Origin: Acidobacteriota bacterium
GTDB taxonomy: Bacteria; Acidobacteriota; UBA890; WLXD01
Length of the DNA stretch: 64,000 nucleotides
Reading direction: 5' to 3'
Assembly (NCBI GenBank): GCA_963666055.2
Contig: CAXWPH010000010.1
Location: forward strand, 32,001-96,000
Below, piece after piece: positions 48,284 to 59,314 of this stretch. Each line of letters opens with the position of its first letter. The stretch's first letter is position 1. Below the pieces are notes generated by a model, which saw only the letters and a list, made by a program, of their open reading frames with translations, searched no databases and was not told the DNA's origin. Made by a program: the position numbers and the translations under genes.

Positions 48284-48530
48284 CCAATTCCTCGGGGTCG
48301 ACGTTGAGGGTCATCGGGGTCCTGGCGTTGGCCACCGTACACCCTATGGGCTGCTATCCAACCGCGCCTTGCCCGGGCCTGCAAACGGCAGACCAGCTGT
48401 ACGGTCTCTGAAGACAACGGGCAACACGAGCGAAACGGGGCCGGTGTGGCCTGTTCCGCTACCGACCCGGGCTCACTCCGCACGCCTGGTGTCTCGGCCG
48501 CGAGGTGAAAGTGTGGCGGCGCGACCCTAG

Positions 48531-48801
48531 CAGGCCGTGGTGAAAGTGTGGTGGGTCTGGTTACGGCGAGTTGGGGCCAGATGCAAGGCAGCCTGACACA
48601 GGTGATGCCCCGGCCATCGTCGAGGAAGGACAACGCTACAGATGGCCCCAAATCGCCGTAACCCTTCGGGCGACAGGGGGTTGCGCGCGTATGCGGCGTC
48701 GTTCCTCGTCAACGATGGGGTAACCATCGCCTCCTCCTCTCTCCTTGCCTCCACTTCGCAAGTCCCTGTCGCCAGACCCACCACACTTTCACCACGGCCT
48801 G
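48531..48801 (+). mobile_element. MITE copy 2 (271 bp, CTAG target duplication)
   Basis: Near-identical to copy 1; CTAG at 48527-48530 and 48802-48805. Confidence 0.92.
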
Positions 48802-53837: not shown

Positions 53838-54311
53838 TCAGTCGTCGCGCACCCAATCGAAACTCGTACGGCATGTCACACAGTAGTATTGCGCCAGGCA
53901 GCCGTAGATCGAGACCGGCTCGGTATCCGCGCTGCCGCAAAAGACGCATGCCACCGTCGGCATGGCGGCGCGGGGAACTACCGGCTGGCGGCGGCGTCCA
54001 CGCCGGTTCGGCAACTCGATCAGCTTACCGCCGGGGCCGACGCCCATCGAACGCGCGTGAGCTCCGGTGAGCATGTGTGCGTGGGCGAGCTCATCCTGGA
54101 TGATCGCCATCGCCGAGATCATGCTGTTGACGGACGGCGCCTTGCGAGCCGCGTAGTAGTAGGCGGGCGCGCTCAGCGGCTCGGTATCGCCCGACACGGT
54201 GACAATGTGGCGCAGCTCGCGCTTGTACTCCTCGGTCATCTCGCTGACCGACTCGATCAGGCCGCCTGCCTGAACCGTCTGTCGAAGAAGCAGATCGGCG
54301 TCGGTGCTCAA
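53838..54311 (-). pseudogene. Deletion fusion of a PaaA-like di-iron subunit N-terminus and a PaaD-like zinc ribbon
   Basis: IESVSEMTEEYK..DTE..KAPS..AIIQDELAHAH joined to CVFCGSADTE..YG..C..YYCVTCRTSFDWV. Confidence 0.7.
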
Positions 54312-54475
54312 AGATACCTTCGGCCGCGATTAGGGGGCGTAGAGTGGCGAGGGGACCGCTGGCCCGGCCCTCAGAATCTACCTTAGAAGGCGCCCGAGAG
54401 GCAGACAAGTTGGGTGACAGCCGCCGATCTCACGCGACCTGCCGAGACCGGCCCCGCGGGCCAATGGTCCACTAG

Positions 54476-54646
54476 CAGGCCGTGGTGAAAGTGTGGTGGG
54501 TCTGGCGACAGGGTCTTGCGAAGTGCAGGCAAGGAGAGAGGAGGAGGCGATGGATACCCCATCGTTGACGAGGAACGACGCAGCATACGCGCGCAACCCC
54601 CTATCGCCCGAAGGGTTACGGCCCACCACACTTCCACCACGGCCTG
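54476..54646 (-). mobile_element. MITE copy 4 (171 bp, inverted, about 100-bp internal deletion)
   Basis: Same terminal IRs; CTAG at 54472-54475 and 54647-54650; one internal hairpin arm missing. Confidence 0.9.
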
Positions 54647-54874
54647 CTAGCGCGCCACCTCGCGATGGGTCGACGAGGGCCCCGGTACGTCCCGACGCAG
54701 ACGCTCTTCGAGCCGCTGGCCGCAGTCTACGCAAACGAGACAGTGGGCCAGAATGGCCACCGCATGGCCGCTCGCCAGCGTCCCGCGCACGTATTGGCGT
54801 AGCTCGATCTCGGCCGGGTGCAACTCGCCCCCAGCACGCAACCTGAGATCGGGGCTGCCTCGGTTGCCGGTCAA
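54647..54874 (-). CDS. Stand-alone zf-HC2 (ZAS) microprotein 2, 75 aa
   Basis: TTG start overlaps the upstream TGA (TTGA); HPAEIELRQYVRGTL..AHCLVCVDC. Confidence 0.6.
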   Translation of the reverse strand: MTGNRGSPDLRLRAGGELHPAEIELRQYVRGTLASGHAVAILAHCLVCVDCGQRLEERLRRDVPGPSSTHREVAR

Positions 54875-55089
54875 TGCGTCGTGCCTGAGGCTGCGTACAC
54901 CTCGCCAAGGCCGACGCTCGGCACGGCCAGCCCGGCAGCCGCTCGCAGCCACAGTAGCGCCCGTGCCTGGCTGCCGCAGGTGTCGCAAACAAGGCAGTGG
55001 ATGTGCAGCAGGTACGCTTCCTCGCGAGCGAGCGATCCGCTCACGAACGCAGCGATATCCAATGCGTCGGGGTGGATCGGGCGATTCAT
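54871..55089 (-). CDS. Stand-alone zf-HC2 (ZAS) microprotein 1, 72 aa
   Basis: GAGAGGA RBS; MNRPIHPDALDIAAFVSGSL..HIHCLVCDTC. Confidence 0.7.
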   Translation of the reverse strand: MNRPIHPDALDIAAFVSGSLAREEAYLLHIHCLVCDTCGSQARALLWLRAAAGLAVPSVGLGEVYAASGTTH

Positions 55090-55239
55090 CAGGGACGTCC
55101 TCTCGATCCAGACCCGCGTCGAGCCAGTCGGACCTGGAAACCGCGTGCGCAGCCACCTGAGCGGCCGCGCACGCGATGGGTCCACAGCGAGTGACCTGTG
55201 GCAGATCCAGCGCAGCATCCGTGGTCAGCACCGCCGAGC

Positions 55240-55817
55240 CGGCGCCTGGCGCTGTCATGGCAGAGCGTGCCCAGGTGTGCACAACTGCCTGATCAGCGTC
55301 GTTCAACACGCCGTTCCAGGCGGCAATGCCGCGGGTCACGGGATCGATACCCAGGGTGCTTGGATACGCAGACAAGCCGAGGAGCGGCAGCACCGCCGGA
55401 TCGACCAGCCGTACCGGCAGGTCGAGGTCATGCGTCGCGAGAAATTCGCGCGTCTCGCGGTCACCGCTGACCGACAGCACATAGATCTCGGGCGCTCGGG
55501 CGCCGAGCTCGGCAACCCTTGCTGCCAAGCTTCGCCATTCCGGCATGTTCTGCTCGCAGAAGGGGCATGTAAGTGCTCAGCACGAACAGCATCAACGGCC
55601 GGTCACGGTCGCTTACCTGCAGCGCGACCTCGTCTCCGGCGAGCGTCCGACCGGGTATGTCGACCGGCGCCGTAACCGGACCGTCGAGTCGCGACGCCTG
55701 TCCGTGTGTAACGTAGTTGTGTTGCACCATCTGGCCCAGCCAGGCGGTCCCGGCAACCAGCGCCAGAACGAACCCAACCTCGGCGATCTTGGCAACCCTG
55801 GACATCGACATCGTCAA
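55240..55817 (-). pseudogene. Membrane-anchored thioredoxin/TlpA-like redoxin (CPFC), +1 frameshift near 55571
   Basis: N-terminal TM segment and GRTLAG..PLMLFVLST in ORF 55461..55817; removing one T gives TCPFCEQNMPEW..GLSAYPSTL..WNGVL. The 3' end is uncertain because no in-frame stop occurs before 54647. Confidence 0.75.
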
Positions 55818-56051
55818 CTAGAGCAGTGCGCAGGTGCTCGAGCCGCCGCCGCCCTCGACGCAGGTCCAAACACACTTACACCCTCGTTTGCGGTATGCCC
55901 CACATTGCTCACAGTCGTTGGCGCACTCTGAGGCGCACGAGCTAGAGTCATGCAAGGCTTCGGCTTGTTCGGCCTGAAACGACAGACCGAAGACCAAGAG
56001 AACAGCCCAGCTGATCAGCAAGACCTTCTTCCAATTGATTGAGCTTCGCAC
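55818..56051 (-). CDS. Secreted 8-cysteine peptide precursor (77 aa)
   Basis: GGAGGA RBS then GTG; Sec-type signal ending AEA; predicted mature peptide LHDSSSCASECANDCEQCGAYRKRGCKCVWTCVEGGGGSSTCALL. Confidence 0.8.
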   Translation of the reverse strand: MRSSINWKKVLLISWAVLLVFGLSFQAEQAEALHDSSSCASECANDCEQCGAYRKRGCKCVWTCVEGGGGSSTCALL

Positions 56052-56101
56052 TGTGCTCCTCCAGGAACTGAGTGACGGGTACCTGTCACAGCGTTCCTGG
56101 G

Positions 56102-56117
56102 GCAAAGTGCATGCCAG
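56102..56117 (-). promoter_or_regulatory. Sigma54 (-24/-12) promoter
   Basis: Minus strand CTGGCATGCACTTTGC = TGGCAY-N5-TTGC with GG-N10-GC spacing, 50 bp upstream of the peptide gene. Confidence 0.8.
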
Positions 56118-56270
56118 CGCCCCATCAAAGCTGGGCGGCCCGGTAAGGCTCGCCTCATCAACGGCTTACGGGCAATCGCCCGGACACCGTCGGGGGGCGA
56201 TCCGGCCCGAGATAACGACGGGCCGCCAGTGGCGCGGGCGTCTGCGCCAGCCGGCCGGCAGGCGCCGGTC

Positions 56271-57128
56271 CTAGTCCAGTTCGAGCAGGAGTTGGCGGAC
56301 GGCTGTCTGTACGAGATCGAGGTCGGATTCCAGAGCGAGATCGGTCGCACCTACCGTGGCCGCTTGGCGCAGGAGCTGTCGGGCTGCGCCGGACCGACCA
56401 GCCTCGAGATGGAGCCGCGCGAGGTAGTAGGCGGTGGTGCGACCGGCCGAGTCCCAATCGGTACGCCCAGGATCGCCTAGTGCCGACAGATGGGTCTCCA
56501 GCGCCTGCCGGGCATCCGGCAGCCGGCTGCCCTCGAAAAACAGCGCCAAGCCGAGCAGGTACGTCCCGGCAGGGTGGTAAGAATCCCCGAACCGATCCAG
56601 GTAACCCGCCGCCTTGCCATAGTCACCACCGGCCAGGGCGCCCACCCCCGCCTGCACAGAAGACAACGTATCCGCGGCCTCGCTGCCCGCCGCGGCCGGG
56701 ACCTCGAGGCCGCTGAGCTGACCCTCGACCAGTGCGATCAGGTTGATGATCTCTACGTCCGCTGCCGTCAGCGCGGCAAACCCGCCCGCGCCGGGCAGCG
56801 AGTCAATCGATCGGTCCGGCGACGCCACCACGTCGCCGTTGTCGACTACCCCCCTCGGTCCAGCGCCCACGCCGAGGCCGACGAGCCAGGCCGACGCACC
56901 GACGAGCAACACGACGCCAGCAGCTGCAGCGACCCATCGAGAGGCGTACCAGGGAACCGACGCCCGCACCGGAGCGGCGCCGCGCAAGAGAATGATGGCG
57001 GCCAGCTGATCGCCGCAATCGCGGCAGGCGAAGCAGTGTTTCCGCACTTCCTCGGCGCGCGCCTCGCTCAGACAGCCCCGAACGTAGGTCACCATGTCCA
57101 ACGGATCCGCGTGCACAATCACCGTCAT
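56271..57128 (-). CDS. Zinc-finger (zf-HC2) transmembrane anti-sigma factor with a helical/TPR-like C-terminal domain
   Basis: HADPLDMVTYVRGCL..KHCFACRDC, TM segment WVAAAAGVVLLVG, TPR-like YLLGLALF and YYLARLHL; ATGA overlap with the sigma gene. Confidence 0.8.
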   Translation of the reverse strand: MTVIVHADPLDMVTYVRGCLSEARAEEVRKHCFACRDCGDQLAAIILLRGAAPVRASVPWYASRWVAAAAGVVLLVGASAWLVGLGVGAGPRGVVDNGDVVASPDRSIDSLPGAGGFAALTAADVEIINLIALVEGQLSGLEVPAAAGSEAADTLSSVQAGVGALAGGDYGKAAGYLDRFGDSYHPAGTYLLGLALFFEGSRLPDARQALETHLSALGDPGRTDWDSAGRTTAYYLARLHLEAGRSGAARQLLRQAATVGATDLALESDLDLVQTAVRQLLLELD

Positions 57129-57685
57129 GTCTCCCAGCCTTCGCCGGACTCCGTTTCCATGCGACGCCCGATCTGCAGCAATGCTGCTTGTAGCCGACTG
57201 TGCACCGTGCTGATCGGAGCTGACTGGATCGCCGCTACCTCGCGTAGCTTCATCGGCGGATCACGCAATACCAACAACTCGAGCACCTCGCGATGAACCG
57301 GCTCCAAGTCGCCTATTAGTCGTAGCGCCACCTCGACAAGATGCCGGCGGGTGCGGGATTCCTCTTCACGAAGCAACGTGCGCAGTGGATCGGAAGAGAT
57401 TTCCTCGCCCGGCACCGGCAGCGGTACCTCGTCGAGCGGTAACAGCCGCCGCCGTTGCTGGAATATCTGCAGAGCCGCCGTGCGAACCGCAGTAAGCACG
57501 TAGTTGTGCGCGTCTTGTTCGCTGCCGAACTTCGGCCGCGCGCGAACCGTGCGAGCGACGGCTTCCTGAACTACCTCCTCGGCGTCCGTCACATTACCCA
57601 TGAGGGACAACGCGTACCCTCTCCAACGATGAAACCGGGCGCGCCACGCTTTTTCGATGTAGCCGTAGGAAGCTGGTTGAGACAC
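57125..57685 (-). CDS. ECF RNA polymerase sigma factor
   Basis: Region 2 DAEEVVQEA..YVLTAVR; region 4 REVLEL..LREVA..ISTVHSRL; AGGAGG upstream of GTG 57685. Confidence 0.88.
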   Translation of the reverse strand: MSQPASYGYIEKAWRARFHRWRGYALSLMGNVTDAEEVVQEAVARTVRARPKFGSEQDAHNYVLTAVRTAALQIFQQRRRLLPLDEVPLPVPGEEISSDPLRTLLREEESRTRRHLVEVALRLIGDLEPVHREVLELLVLRDPPMKLREVAAIQSAPISTVHSRLQAALLQIGRRMETESGEGWET

Positions 57686-57900
57686 AGGCCTGCGATCCTC
57701 CTGGCGCTCGCCGGCACCGACGAGGTAACCATCCTGGTATGGCGGCCGCGACGGCGTCAATGGGTGGCCCGGAAAACCCCAGACGCCTGAGAGCAGATGC
57801 AAAAAACTTCTACAAATACGAGACTCGACAGCCGTACACCTGGTGATTCGACGGGCTCCGCCAGGTACGATCCGTACGGGGGCAGAACTTCGGACGGCTA

Positions 57901-58370
57901 GTGCGACGTACCACAGCTCAGCCTCGGCCGGCTCGGCACAACGAAAGCCGCTTGCTCGGTGGCAGCGATGCGATGTGTCGGGTCCGCGATCAAATCGAGG
58001 TCGCCGCCCAATATACGGAGCCGGCGCTCGTACTCGGCGAGACGGGCGTCGGTAAGGAGCTGGTGGCGCGGCGAATTCACCGTCGTAGCTCCAGATCGCT
58101 CGCCGAGCCAGAGATCGTGAATTGCGCCGGGCTGAGCCCGGACGTGCTTGCCTCGGAGCTGTTCGGTCACCGCCGTGGCGCGTTCACCGGCGCGGATCGC
58201 GATCGCGCCGGCCGCATCAGGGCCGCCGACGGCTCGACCTTGATCCTGGATGAAATCAGCGCAGCGCCCCCGTCACTTCAGGCCACCGTGTTGCGCGCGG
58301 TGGAATACGGCGAGGTCCAGCCAGTCGGATCCGATTCCGTCTTCCAAGTCGACGTGCGATTCGTCTGGTC
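57901..58370 (+). pseudogene. Sigma54 enhancer-binding protein (AAA+ only, no N-terminal sensor), C-terminally truncated
   Basis: GETGVGKE, VNCA, SELFGHRRGAFTGA, LILDEI, VDVRFV, after which similarity is lost (no ATN, R-finger or HTH). Confidence 0.88.
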
Positions 58371-58415
58371 AAGTACCGGATACAGGCGCCCGCCCGCGGA
58401 CGCGCCGCCCGCTAG

Positions 58416-58686
58416 CAGGCCGTGGCAGAAGTGTGGCGGGCCTGGTTACGACGAGTTGGGGCCAGATGGAAGGCGGCCTGACACTGGCGATGCCCTAGCC
58501 ATCGTCGAGGAAGGCCAACGCCACAGATGGCCCCAAATCGTCGTAACCCTTCGGGCGATAGGGGGTTGCGCGCATATGCTACGTCGTTCCTCGTCAACGA
58601 TGGGGTATCCATCGCCTCCTCCTCTCTCCTTGCCTCCGCCCCGCAAGACCCGGCCGCCAGGCCCGCCACACTTCCGCCACGGCCTG
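58416..58686 (+). mobile_element. MITE copy 5 (271 bp, CTAG target duplication)
   Basis: Same internal sequence as copies 1 and 2; CTAG at 58412-58415 and 58687-58690. Confidence 0.92.
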
Positions 58687-58831
58687 CTAGGGGCAATCGC
58701 CCCGCTGGCGAAGGGATCCAGCCAAGGATCTCGGAAAAACGGCAGCAACCAGCTTCCTCCTAGCGAAAGCTGTGTTTTCCGGGTGGTTCTCTGTCGAGCG
58801 AAGTATCCAAACTGCAACGAGCGGAGCAATC

Positions 58832-59314
58832 ATGCAGGTCTCGTCAGAGGGTGGACGACCGTCGGGACGCGAGGTGGCGGAGCTTGCACGTGTGCACATA
58901 GAGCGCCACTACGCATCGGCTGTCGGATGCGGCACTACCAGCATCGCGACACTGCTGGGAGTCTCCTCGTCGCTGCTGTGCCATCGATATCGCGCTGCCT
59001 ACGGGGTGACGATCGGCCAGCACGTTCGTAGGCTGCGCATCGGCAAGGCGCGTGAGTTGCTGAGCTCGCGATCTGGCCAGCTGATCAAGGAAGTCGCAGC
59101 CGACGTGGGCTACTGTCGGCAGTCATACCGTACGTTCCTTAACGCCTTCCGGGCGGAAACCGGTATGCCGCCGAGCCGTTACCAGCGCCAGGCGCTCGCC
59201 CCGATTCAGGCCACACCGATCGAGGTAGAGGTGCCGCAGCAGCGCCCGGATCAAGCTCGCTCCGCAAACCTGACGCACCGCCTCACACCAGCATCGACGC
59301 CCCGATTCAGGTAG
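58832..59314 (+). CDS. Stand-alone AraC-family HTH regulator
   Basis: IATLLGVSSSLL..LRIGKARELL..IKEVAADVGY..FRAETGMPPSRY; no sensor domain. Confidence 0.85.
   Translation: MQVSSEGGRPSGREVAELARVHIERHYASAVGCGTTSIATLLGVSSSLLCHRYRAAYGVTIGQHVRRLRIGKARELLSSRSGQLIKEVAADVGYCRQSYRTFLNAFRAETGMPPSRYQRQALAPIQATPIEVEVPQQRPDQARSANLTHRLTPASTPRFR

What the first reader, a model, noticed from the sequence alone, without database searches (positions are those of the whole stretch)
55818..56051. Defensin-like or metal-binding mini-protein with spacing C-x3-C-x3-C-x2-C-x7-C-x-C-x3-C-x9-C
Seen: strong RBS, basic n-region, hydrophobic h-region, AEA cleavage site, and 8 Cys in 45 residues with an RKR patch and GGGGSS. 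Established: CxxxC on a helix plus CxC on a strand is the cysteine-stabilised alpha-beta signature of defensins and scorpion toxins, and it is rare in bacteria. Inference: a four-disulfide antimicrobial or signalling peptide, or a periplasmic metal buffer.
Basis: partly seen in the sequence, partly recalled or inferred. Interest (0 to 1): 0.8.

Follow-up and report, generated by a model that had tools for sequence, protein, structure and literature searches.

The report
Disulfide mini-protein partnering an anti-sigma sensor
This is a real, unnamed family of small eight-cysteine proteins, likely exported, that sits in a conserved sigma-factor switch of one bacterial class and likely works as the matched partner of a membrane stress sensor rather than as a defensin-type antibiotic.

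Summary
The ORF is real (minus strand, 77 aa, signal-peptide-like leader, 8 Cys spaced 3-3-2-7-1-3-9). It belongs to an unnamed family (98 aligned members). The family was found in 17 of 26 genomes of one Acidobacteriota class and in none of 375 other genomes of the phylum. The defensin reading is weak. Cys5 of the CxC is lost together with Cys8, never with a helix Cys. The model is helix plus three-strand meander. Members are neutral to acidic, and RKR is unique to this copy. There is no MNIO (bufferin) enzyme in the class. Context points to signalling: a zinc-finger, transmembrane, TPR anti-sigma lies in 26 of 28 loci, an ECF sigma in 24 and a sigma54 promoter motif in 17. A redoxin or beta-propeller gene is adjacent in 23. 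The sensor's outer domain and the peptide diverge fast and changed as one block, with a breakpoint inside the anti-sigma gene. Best reading (about 45%): a periplasmic ligand or cap of that anti-sigma; binding is untested. Here the sigma54 activator is deleted and the redoxin frameshifted. This scan noted the cassette before in other genomes.

The parts
55818..56051 (-). 8-Cys mini-protein precursor, 77 aa, GTG start
   Evidence: homologues
55956..56051 (-). Likely Sec signal peptide, residues 1-32, ending A-E-A
   Evidence: sequence; hydropathy 2.95; predicted helix 7-30; A30 at least 90% conserved in 49 rows; no SignalP run
55821..55955 (-). Mature 45-residue domain, predicted helix + three-stranded meander (HEEE); C1, C3, C4, C7 invariant; likely C5-C8 disulfide
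   Evidence: AF2 pLDDT 81.4, H6-14 E18-24 E27-32 E37-41; Cys co-loss
56056..56062 (-). Ribosome-binding site GGAGGAG
56102..56116 (-). Sigma54-type -24/-12 promoter motif (YGGCA-N6-TTGC; consensus recalled)
   Evidence: 9 of 9 loci of the own family, 55-67 nt before the start; genome background 0.0013 per 70 nt; coordinates
55199..55811 (-). Membrane-anchored TlpA/DsbE-like redoxin (CPFC); broken here by one extra base near 55572, and the congeners' stop is not seen in frame; end approximate
   Evidence: tblastn in two frames; intact in 4 of 4 congeners; AhpC-TSA/Redoxin E 3.5e-5 for the congener; same break in short-read contigs
54871..55089 (-). Small soluble zinc-finger anti-sigma-like protein 1 (HxxxCxxC), 72 aa
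   Evidence: (ChrR/RseA weak hits); no Pfam hit at E 0.01
54647..54874 (-). Small soluble zinc-finger anti-sigma-like protein 2 (HxxxCxxC), 75 aa, start overlaps the stop of protein 1
   Evidence: (ChrR E 0.001 on this stretch)
56271..57128 (-). Anti-sigma: N-terminal zf-HC2 (ZAS), one likely transmembrane helix, C-terminal TPR-like domain (likely periplasmic); no CHAT domain
   Evidence: TPR_16 E 1.5e-5, zf-HC2 E 0.019; alignment A4
57125..57685 (-). ECF sigma factor (likely start GTG 57685; longest ORF runs to 57802)
   Evidence: Sigma70_r2 E 2.8e-7, TIGR02937 E 3.2e-10; start from congener comparison
57755..57810 (.). Two conserved boxes between ECF and activator genes (57755-57763, 57800-57810); likely promoter elements, one resembling an ECF -35 box facing the activator
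   Evidence: alignment of 6 genomes; coordinates; role inferred
57901..58445 (+). Divergent sensor-less sigma54 activator (bEBP), about 335 aa in relatives; here a remnant with an internal deletion of about 490 bp
   Evidence: Sigma54_activat E 2.7e-42; blastn jump against G002; adjacent in 7 of 7 other own-family loci of this orthologue

Best explanation
The gene encodes a 45-residue, eight-cysteine mini-protein, likely exported and disulfide-stapled, that likely binds the outer TPR domain of the neighbouring membrane anti-sigma factor and would hold its ECF sigma switch off until the mini-protein is lost, cut or reduced. Shown: the ORF, its family, the gene cassette, the sigma54 motif, the Cys co-loss pattern, fast divergence of peptide and sensor domain, and their joint change as one block. 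Inferred, step by step: (1) Sec export and cleavage after A32; (2) folding to a helix plus three strands with four disulfides, one of them C5-C8, helped by the co-encoded membrane redoxin where present; (3) binding to the anti-sigma TPR domain, as an RseB-like cap (RseB recalled; 'cap' wording taken from an earlier scan note); (4) loss of the cap allows intramembrane proteolysis and release of the ECF sigma, as proposed for DdvA; (5) in this family of genomes the ECF sigma would switch on the sensor-less activator, which would fire the sigma54 promoter and make more peptide, redoxin and two soluble zinc-finger anti-sigma proteins, resetting the switch. In this genome the activator is deleted and the redoxin broken, so the resetting arm is probably dead although the peptide ORF is intact.
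For: Context in 28 genome loci: a ZAS/TPR anti-sigma is directly upstream in 21 and upstream of a propeller gene in 5 of the other 7, 26 of 28; ECF sigma in 24 of 28; in 6 loci the peptide start overlaps the anti-sigma stop; four loci (L018, L052, L057, L058) keep the anti-sigma but have neither redoxin nor propeller next to the peptide. Strict sigma54 motif in 17 of 28 and an activator beside 15 of 28. Among congeners the mature peptide (48-67% identity to this copy) and the sensor's outer domain (49-66%) diverge much faster than ECF (82-92%), ZAS domain (72-94%), redoxin (78-84%) or activator (80-88%). G000 and G002 are 87-97% identical over activator, ECF and ZAS domain, and 56-86% from about 56980, inside the anti-sigma gene, through outer domain, peptide, redoxin and the two small genes; trees put G000 with G001 for peptide (0.90) and outer domain (0.98) but with G002 for ECF (0.82). 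AF2 gives one compact fold, five models at pLDDT 79-81. DdvA shows that a ZAS-TM-TPR anti-sigma is protected from RseP by its periplasmic part, and its authors expect a protein signal (PMC11506125, abstract and first part of Discussion).
Against: No direct evidence of binding or of the direction of the effect. The swapped block also carries the redoxin and the two small genes, so linkage alone could explain it, and it is one event. Across 18 loci peptide distances track the ZAS domain (partial r 0.47) and ECF (0.46) better than the outer domain (0.30), so there is no specific co-evolution signal (one ECF row was a frameshifted fragment). Related ECF/anti-sigma pairs exist with no peptide beside them (L124-L128, L112, L113, L115). 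In 7 loci a propeller gene separates anti-sigma and peptide. A gene under sigma54 control downstream of a relay looks as much like an output as a regulator. Six members lack C2 alone and three (L054, L080, L085) lack C5 but keep a late Cys, so pairing is not strict.
Confidence: 0.45

Rival explanations
1. The mini-protein is an output of the switch: an exported inhibitor, decoy or toxin aimed at an outside target (a protease, a phage protein, a competitor), not a regulator of the anti-sigma.
For: Own sigma54 promoter and strong RBS; variable surface on a fixed Cys frame, 35-60% identity at non-Cys sites among congeners; tandem duplicate in G021; up to 5 matches per genome; DdvS controls a defence island (PMC11506125 abstract).
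Against: Median net charge -2, only 2 of 98 members at +2, which argues against a cationic membrane-active peptide; I saw no dedicated exporter or immunity gene in the gene maps of the loci (not searched by profile); start overlaps the anti-sigma stop in 6 loci.
Confidence: 0.22
2. The mini-protein is the partner of the co-encoded six-bladed beta-propeller or the substrate of the redoxin; the complex, not the free peptide, is the sensor or effector.
For: Propeller adjacent in 13 of 28 loci, redoxin in 14, either in 23; redoxin, propeller and glutamine cyclotransferase carry the same N-terminal membrane anchor when they follow the peptide; an earlier unchecked scan note predicts peptide-propeller binding in a Gemmatimonadota cassette.
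Against: No propeller in this locus or in the other 8 loci of the own family; four loci have neither gene; the downstream gene is exchangeable while the anti-sigma is nearly constant.
Confidence: 0.13
3. A periplasmic metal or redox buffer: the cysteines bind Cu or Zn, as in bufferins under SigF/NrsF control.
For: 8 Cys, Sec-type leader, ECF/anti-sigma neighbourhood like bufferins (PMC11626156 passages); odd-Cys members would leave a free thiol; a redoxin could keep thiols reduced.
Against: No MNIO (PF05114) in 26 of 26 genomes of the class, while the control rang in Caulobacter; pairwise loss of C5 and C8 fits a disulfide; no conserved His or Met; I saw no metal-handling genes in the gene maps.
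Confidence: 0.11
4. A true CSab (cis-) defensin with a C-terminal hairpin added: C1-C4, C2-C5, C3-C6 plus C7-C8.
For: Regular expression met by 79 of 98, G-x-C before C4 in 61 of 98; weak Pfam hits in 4 of 17 members (Defensin_like E 0.005 in two, Gamma-thionin 0.023, Myticin 0.038); heliomicin E 1.6; actinodefensin E 0.011 in 1 of 98.
Against: Predicted pair losses are not seen: C7 is never lost although C8 is absent in 10, and C2 and C5 are never lost together; C5 goes with C8 in 9 of those 10, about 5 changes on a quick tree; this copy has no G-x-C before C4 and only 2 residues between C3 and C4.
Confidence: 0.09

Closest known systems
DdvS/DdvA of Myxococcus xanthus (PMC11506125; abstract and part 1 of 2 of the Discussion read)
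   Same: ECF sigma next to a single-pass anti-sigma with a cytoplasmic zinc domain and a periplasmic TPR region; a protein signal is expected.
   Different: DdvA has a CHAT protease-like domain and controls CBASS/CRISPR; this anti-sigma is 285 aa, TPR only, and comes with a secreted 8-Cys mini-protein, a redoxin, two soluble ZAS proteins and a sigma54 relay. No such peptide is named in the parts read.
CSab / cis-defensins, including the five bacterial classes (PMC11561630: parts 1-2 of 7 and passages; PMC5116183: passages)
   Same: Signal peptide, short Cys-rich core, helix followed by strands, passes the published Cys regular expression; the myxobacterial xanthusin-1 also showed no antimicrobial activity.
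   Different: Extra strand after the CxC, invariant C7, C5 lost with C8; class V has its fourth bond between C1 and C8; the only acidobacterial defensin listed is class IV with a long N-terminal tail, absent here.
Bufferins under SigF/NrsF (PMC11626156; passages)
   Same: Sec-exported small Cys protein near an ECF sigma and anti-sigma.
   Different: Bufferins need MNIO (BufB) and BufC; no MNIO in the class; here a redoxin or propeller, a ZAS-TPR anti-sigma and sigma54 control.
RseB/MucB caps of anti-sigma factors, PspF-type sensor-less activators, and agr/ComCD pherotype cassettes (all recalled, no call)
   Same: Soluble periplasmic partner encoded behind the anti-sigma; activator without input domain divergent from its module; sensor domain and ligand exchanged together.
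   Different: RseB is a large lipoprotein-fold protein without a Cys frame; pherotype ligands are short processed peptides read by histidine kinases in Gram-positive bacteria.
De novo mini protein gHEEE_02 (PDB 5w9f), and generic cystatin-like HEEE folds
   Same: Helix plus three-strand meander: Z 3.1, rmsd 2.9, 38 aligned of 41; best row 4r80 Z 3.6, rmsd 2.8, 45 aligned.
   Different: Z is in the range of a common arrangement and shows neither kinship nor function; identity 7-8%.

Membership tests
CSab (cis-) defensin | Signal peptide and 30-130 aa precursor | tested here: met
   77 aa; leader judged by hydropathy, A-x-A and conservation; no SignalP/Phobius run
CSab (cis-) defensin | Cys pattern CX(2,18)CX3CX(2,12)CX(4,17)CXC | tested here: met
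   this copy and 79 of 98 members (pattern from PMC11561630)
CSab (cis-) defensin | CSH pairing: both Cys of the CxC bonded to the helix CxxxC | tested here: not met
   indirect test by natural loss: C5 goes with C8 (9 of 10 members lacking C8), never with C2; C7 98 of 98. Three members lack C5 but keep a late Cys. Bonds were not read from coordinates or measured.
CSab (cis-) defensin | Fold: helix followed by two antiparallel strands, structural match to defensins | tested here: inconclusive
   model has a helix and three strands; structure searches gave only weak generic matches, which exclude no family
CSab (cis-) defensin | Gamma-core G-x-C | tested here: inconclusive
   G-x-C before C4 in 61 of 98 members, not in this copy
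CSab (cis-) defensin | Antimicrobial activity / cationic surface | not testable with these tools
   activity needs assays; net charge -1 here, median -2
Bufferin (MNIO-modified metal-binding RiPP) | Associated MNIO (DUF692) enzyme | tested here: not met
   0 of 26 genomes (12 at least 90% complete and at most 5% contaminated); control rang in Caulobacter
Bufferin (MNIO-modified metal-binding RiPP) | Copper binding and induction by copper | not testable with these tools
   needs experiments
Radical-SAM-modified Cys-x3 RiPP (TIGR04117) | Score over the curated cut-off (50 bits) | tested here: not met
   16.6 bits here; 30 of 98 members hit weakly, best E 7.3e-5
Radical-SAM-modified Cys-x3 RiPP (TIGR04117) | Neighbouring radical SAM enzyme | tested here: not met
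   no CxxxCxxC in gene-like ORFs of 200 aa or more in 27 of 27 stretches of 3-18 kb around peptide loci; several contigs are short
DdvA-type anti-sigma system | ZAS domain + one TM + periplasmic TPR next to an ECF sigma | tested here: met
DdvA-type anti-sigma system | CHAT domain and linked CBASS/CRISPR island | tested here: not met
   no CHAT hit in the 285-aa protein; none of the genes at 46-64 kb of the window that I scanned belongs to such a system; regulon elsewhere not examined

The most novel reading that the evidence does not exclude
A pherotype-like recognition system in Gram-negative bacteria built from a folded disulfide mini-protein and an anti-sigma TPR receptor. Ligand and receptor domain are swapped between strains as matched alleles while the sigma machinery stays put, and the signal is passed from an ECF sigma through a sensor-less activator to sigma54. 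The mini-protein would also define a new natural four-disulfide helix-three-strand scaffold distinct from CSab.
Probability: 0.25. Interest if true: 0.8.

Novelty: new variant of a known kind. Interest (0 to 1): 0.55.

Why it matters
The signals read by most transmembrane anti-sigma factors are unknown; DdvA's authors call this a knowledge gap. Here a candidate ligand is encoded next to the receptor, is 45 residues long and can be synthesised, and natural allele pairs from close relatives give a ready specificity test. The family is also a warning for defensin mining: it passes the published CSab regular expression in 79 of 98 members, yet its natural Cys losses contradict CSab pairing. A small acidic four-disulfide scaffold that tolerates wide surface change could be useful for binder design. 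If the peptide is only an output, it is still an unnamed secreted family with a defined regulatory circuit.

Tried and rejected
Plus-strand reading: has a stop. Pfam and NCBIfam: no family at its cut-off. PDB by sequence: best E 1.6 (heliomicin) and E 0.12 (big defensin), not significant. Foldseek on the precursor and on the mature model: no match at E 0.001 or better, no defensin among the rows shown. VIA over 48,161 chains: best Z 3.6, none at Z 5 or more, no defensin among the 50 rows shown. This does not exclude the family. The second-look library pdb_via never ran. ESM Atlas: only unnamed clusters at 0.80-0.84, and structure rows dominated by the leader helix of a poor model. Cluster membership look-up could not be made. 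Scans of genome and metagenome contigs with the alignments did not run, so the context and taxonomy of the roughly 70 metagenome proteins are unknown. Mirror-tree test: not specific. Assembly error as cause of the broken redoxin and activator: rejected. Rows dropped: L017 (chance hit), P0036 and P0037 (truncated or deleted forms), P0072 and P0081 (long repeats, unrelated). Five type-B peptides found later (L074, L080, L082, L084, L085) are not in the 98-row alignment. In one search the 'redox' and 'prop' labels cross-react through the shared membrane anchor; I counted these genes from the sequences. Literature: seven searches listed no paper on this family or cassette; the library lacks most subscription papers, and I read no supplements (the sequence tables of PMC11561630 could hold a member).

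Full report
Observation. The stretch 55818-56051 is an ORF on the minus strand (the plus strand has a stop). It gives 77 aa from GTG, behind GGAGGAG at 56062-56056. Residues 1-32 look like a Sec signal: basic start, hydrophobic core (11-residue hydropathy 2.95) and A-E-A. The 45-residue remainder has 8 Cys spaced 3-3-2-7-1-3-9. A genome-wide filter for RBS, hydrophobic leader and Cys-rich tail returned 2 ORFs in 5.7 Mb, and only this one looks like a gene. There is no paralogue in the own genome. SignalP was not available.

Family. A direct search found 2 relatives at 69-73%, one named as an Acidobacteriota MAG protein. Genome searches found the family in 17 of 26 genomes of the class (one order, two families). 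It was in none of 375 sampled genomes from the rest of the phylum, where only 14 candidates per genome were scored. Profile searches added 36 and 55 proteins, partly overlapping. I aligned 98 members after dropping four artefactual or unrelated rows. No Pfam or NCBIfam model reaches its cut-off. The frame is C-x3-C-x3-C-x(2-6)-C-x7-C-x-C-x3-C-x9-C, with G before C5, an aromatic residue between C6 and C7, and two G after C7. RKR is in 1 of 98 and GGGG in 10 of 98. Median net charge is -2, 84 of 98 are at or below 0, and 2 reach +2.

Is it CSab? It passes the published regular expression in 79 of 98 members (PMC11561630), and 4 of 17 members have weak defensin-type Pfam hits. That pattern predicts C1-C4, C2-C5, C3-C6, leaving C7-C8. 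Natural variants disagree. C1, C3, C4 and C7 are in 98 of 98. After correcting two one-residue shifts (L018, P0084), C8 is absent in 10 members, and 9 of these also lack C5. C2 is absent in 6, one clade, and all of them keep C5. Joint loss needs about 5 changes on a quick, weakly supported tree. Against strict pairing: L054, and two later type-B peptides not in the alignment (L080, L085), lack C5 but keep a late Cys, and L052, beside an insertion sequence, lacks C8 alone. AF2 on the mature part gives pLDDT 81.4 (five models 79-81), helix 6-14 and strands 18-24, 27-32 and 37-41. The best structural matches are generic helix-three-strand folds (Z 3.6, rmsd 2.8, 45 aligned; gHEEE_02 Z 3.1, rmsd 2.9, 38 aligned). 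I infer a C5-C8 bond between strands 2 and 3, with C1-C4, C6 and C7 tying the helix to the sheet; the bonds were not read from coordinates.

Context in the window. Upstream on the same strand lie an ECF sigma (57125-57685) and an anti-sigma with zf-HC2, one likely membrane helix and TPR repeats (56271-57128). A sigma54-type motif at 56116-56102 precedes the peptide (consensus recalled). It is present in 9 of 9 own-family loci at 55-67 nt, against 0.0013 expected per 70 nt. Downstream are a membrane-anchored CPFC redoxin and two small soluble HxxxCxxC proteins. Divergent from the ECF gene is a sigma54 activator without an input domain, about 335 aa in relatives and adjacent in 7 of 7 other own-family loci of this orthologue. 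In this genome it has lost about 490 bp, and the redoxin has one extra base. Short-read contigs carry the same sequence: X1 and X2 over 54621-58481 with no difference, and X5, of another study, over 54621-57594 with one substitution. X1 or X2 may be the source sample. The peptide ORF is intact in all four runs.

Context in relatives. Of 28 genome loci (29 peptide genes), 21 have the anti-sigma directly upstream. In 6 of these the peptide start overlaps the anti-sigma stop. The other 7 read sigma54 motif, six-bladed propeller, peptide(s), often redoxin, then a convergent full-length activator; 5 of them also have ECF and anti-sigma upstream, one has the ECF only, and one is cut by the contig end. 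Totals: anti-sigma 26, ECF 24, sigma54 motif 17, activator 15, redoxin 14, propeller 13, redoxin or propeller 23, all of 28. These genomes are kin, so the counts are not independent. The link is one-way: a group of related ECF/anti-sigma pairs has no peptide nearby. No MNIO was found in 26 genomes, and no radical SAM motif in 27 stretches.

Evolution. Against four congeners the mature peptide is 48-67% identical (35-60% without Cys) and the anti-sigma outer domain 49-66%. The leader is 84-91%, the ZAS domain 72-94%, ECF 82-92%, redoxin 78-84% and two flanking metabolic genes 82-95%. dN/dS stays below 1. Against the nearest relative G002, DNA identity is 87-97% across activator, ECF and ZAS domain. 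It falls to 56-86% from about 56980, inside the anti-sigma gene, to the end of the small genes. Trees group this genome with G001 for peptide and outer domain but with G002 for ECF. So the outer sensor domain and the peptide operon changed as one block. This is one event, and it includes the redoxin. A partial Mantel test over 18 loci showed no specific peptide/outer-domain signal (0.30, against 0.47 for ZAS and 0.46 for ECF; one ECF row was faulty).

Mechanism. The most constant neighbour is the anti-sigma, the two likely periplasmic parts vary fastest and moved together, and in the own family the peptide is co-expressed with two soluble anti-sigma-like proteins, which would be shut-off parts. 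I therefore read the peptide as a likely periplasmic cap or ligand of the TPR domain (0.45). It would be made through an ECF-to-activator-to-sigma54 relay, inferred from gene order and conserved boxes at 57755-57810. Rivals: exported effector or decoy (0.22), partner of propeller or redoxin (0.13), metal buffer (0.11), true CSab defensin (0.09). Binding was not examined. In this genome the relay is probably dead.

Known systems and novelty. The nearest studied system is DdvS/DdvA (PMC11506125; abstract and part of the Discussion), which adds a CHAT domain and has no such peptide in the parts read. Bufferins share the ECF-plus-Cys-protein theme but need an MNIO (PMC11626156, passages). Bacterial cis-defensins exist in five classes, none with this frame as described in the text read (PMC11561630; PMC5116183, passages). 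Seven paper searches listed nothing on this family. Two unchecked notes of this scan describe the same cassette in other genomes, one with predicted binding to the anti-sigma; they are not independent evidence. Verdict: real, an unnamed mini-protein family in a new variant of ECF/anti-sigma signalling; interest 0.55.

Noticed in passing
window 48527-48800, 54472-54650, 58412-58690: Dispersed repeat of about 280 bp (MITE-like); the three queries gave 155-207 blastn pieces each across the genome. One copy follows the activator remnant, one closes the cassette.
   Followed up: partly
window 55740-55811; L010, L011, L014, L016, L009: The gene after the peptide always begins with the same membrane anchor (W-L-G-x-L-x-x-H/Q-N motif), fused to a redoxin, a six-bladed propeller or a glutamine cyclotransferase. 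The anchor may be a functional part of the module.
   Followed up: partly
window 54647-55089: Two tandem soluble zinc-finger anti-sigma-like micro-proteins with overlapping stop/start, kept in G001-G004 and G007 (one seen in G006); no Pfam hit.
   Followed up: partly
window 53838-54408: Remnant of a phenylacetate/benzoyl-CoA epoxidase operon: PaaA start fused to a PaaD zinc ribbon; longer in G003 and G004. Another sign of local decay.
   Followed up: no
L123:1537-1935 (-) and L131:2145-2979 (-): Other secreted Cys-rich mini-proteins with different spacings sit divergently beside related ECF/anti-sigma pairs, one with a propeller gene; no Pfam hit for the two scanned.
   Followed up: no
L117:5159-5765 (G021:C485): Tandem duplicate of the peptide gene with near-identical, Trp-rich mature parts.
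   Followed up: no
P0080, P0085-P0088, L057, L058: Subgroup with a spacer after the leader and a ninth Cys in a C-terminal tail.
   Followed up: no
L124-L127, L115: Peptide-less ECF / ZAS-TPR anti-sigma orthologue group; in several genomes both parts lie in one open frame, possibly a sigma/anti-sigma fusion.
   Followed up: no
window 58772-59314 (+): AraC-type HTH protein directly behind the activator; a similar ORF is at the same place in G001; may be part of the relay.
   Followed up: no
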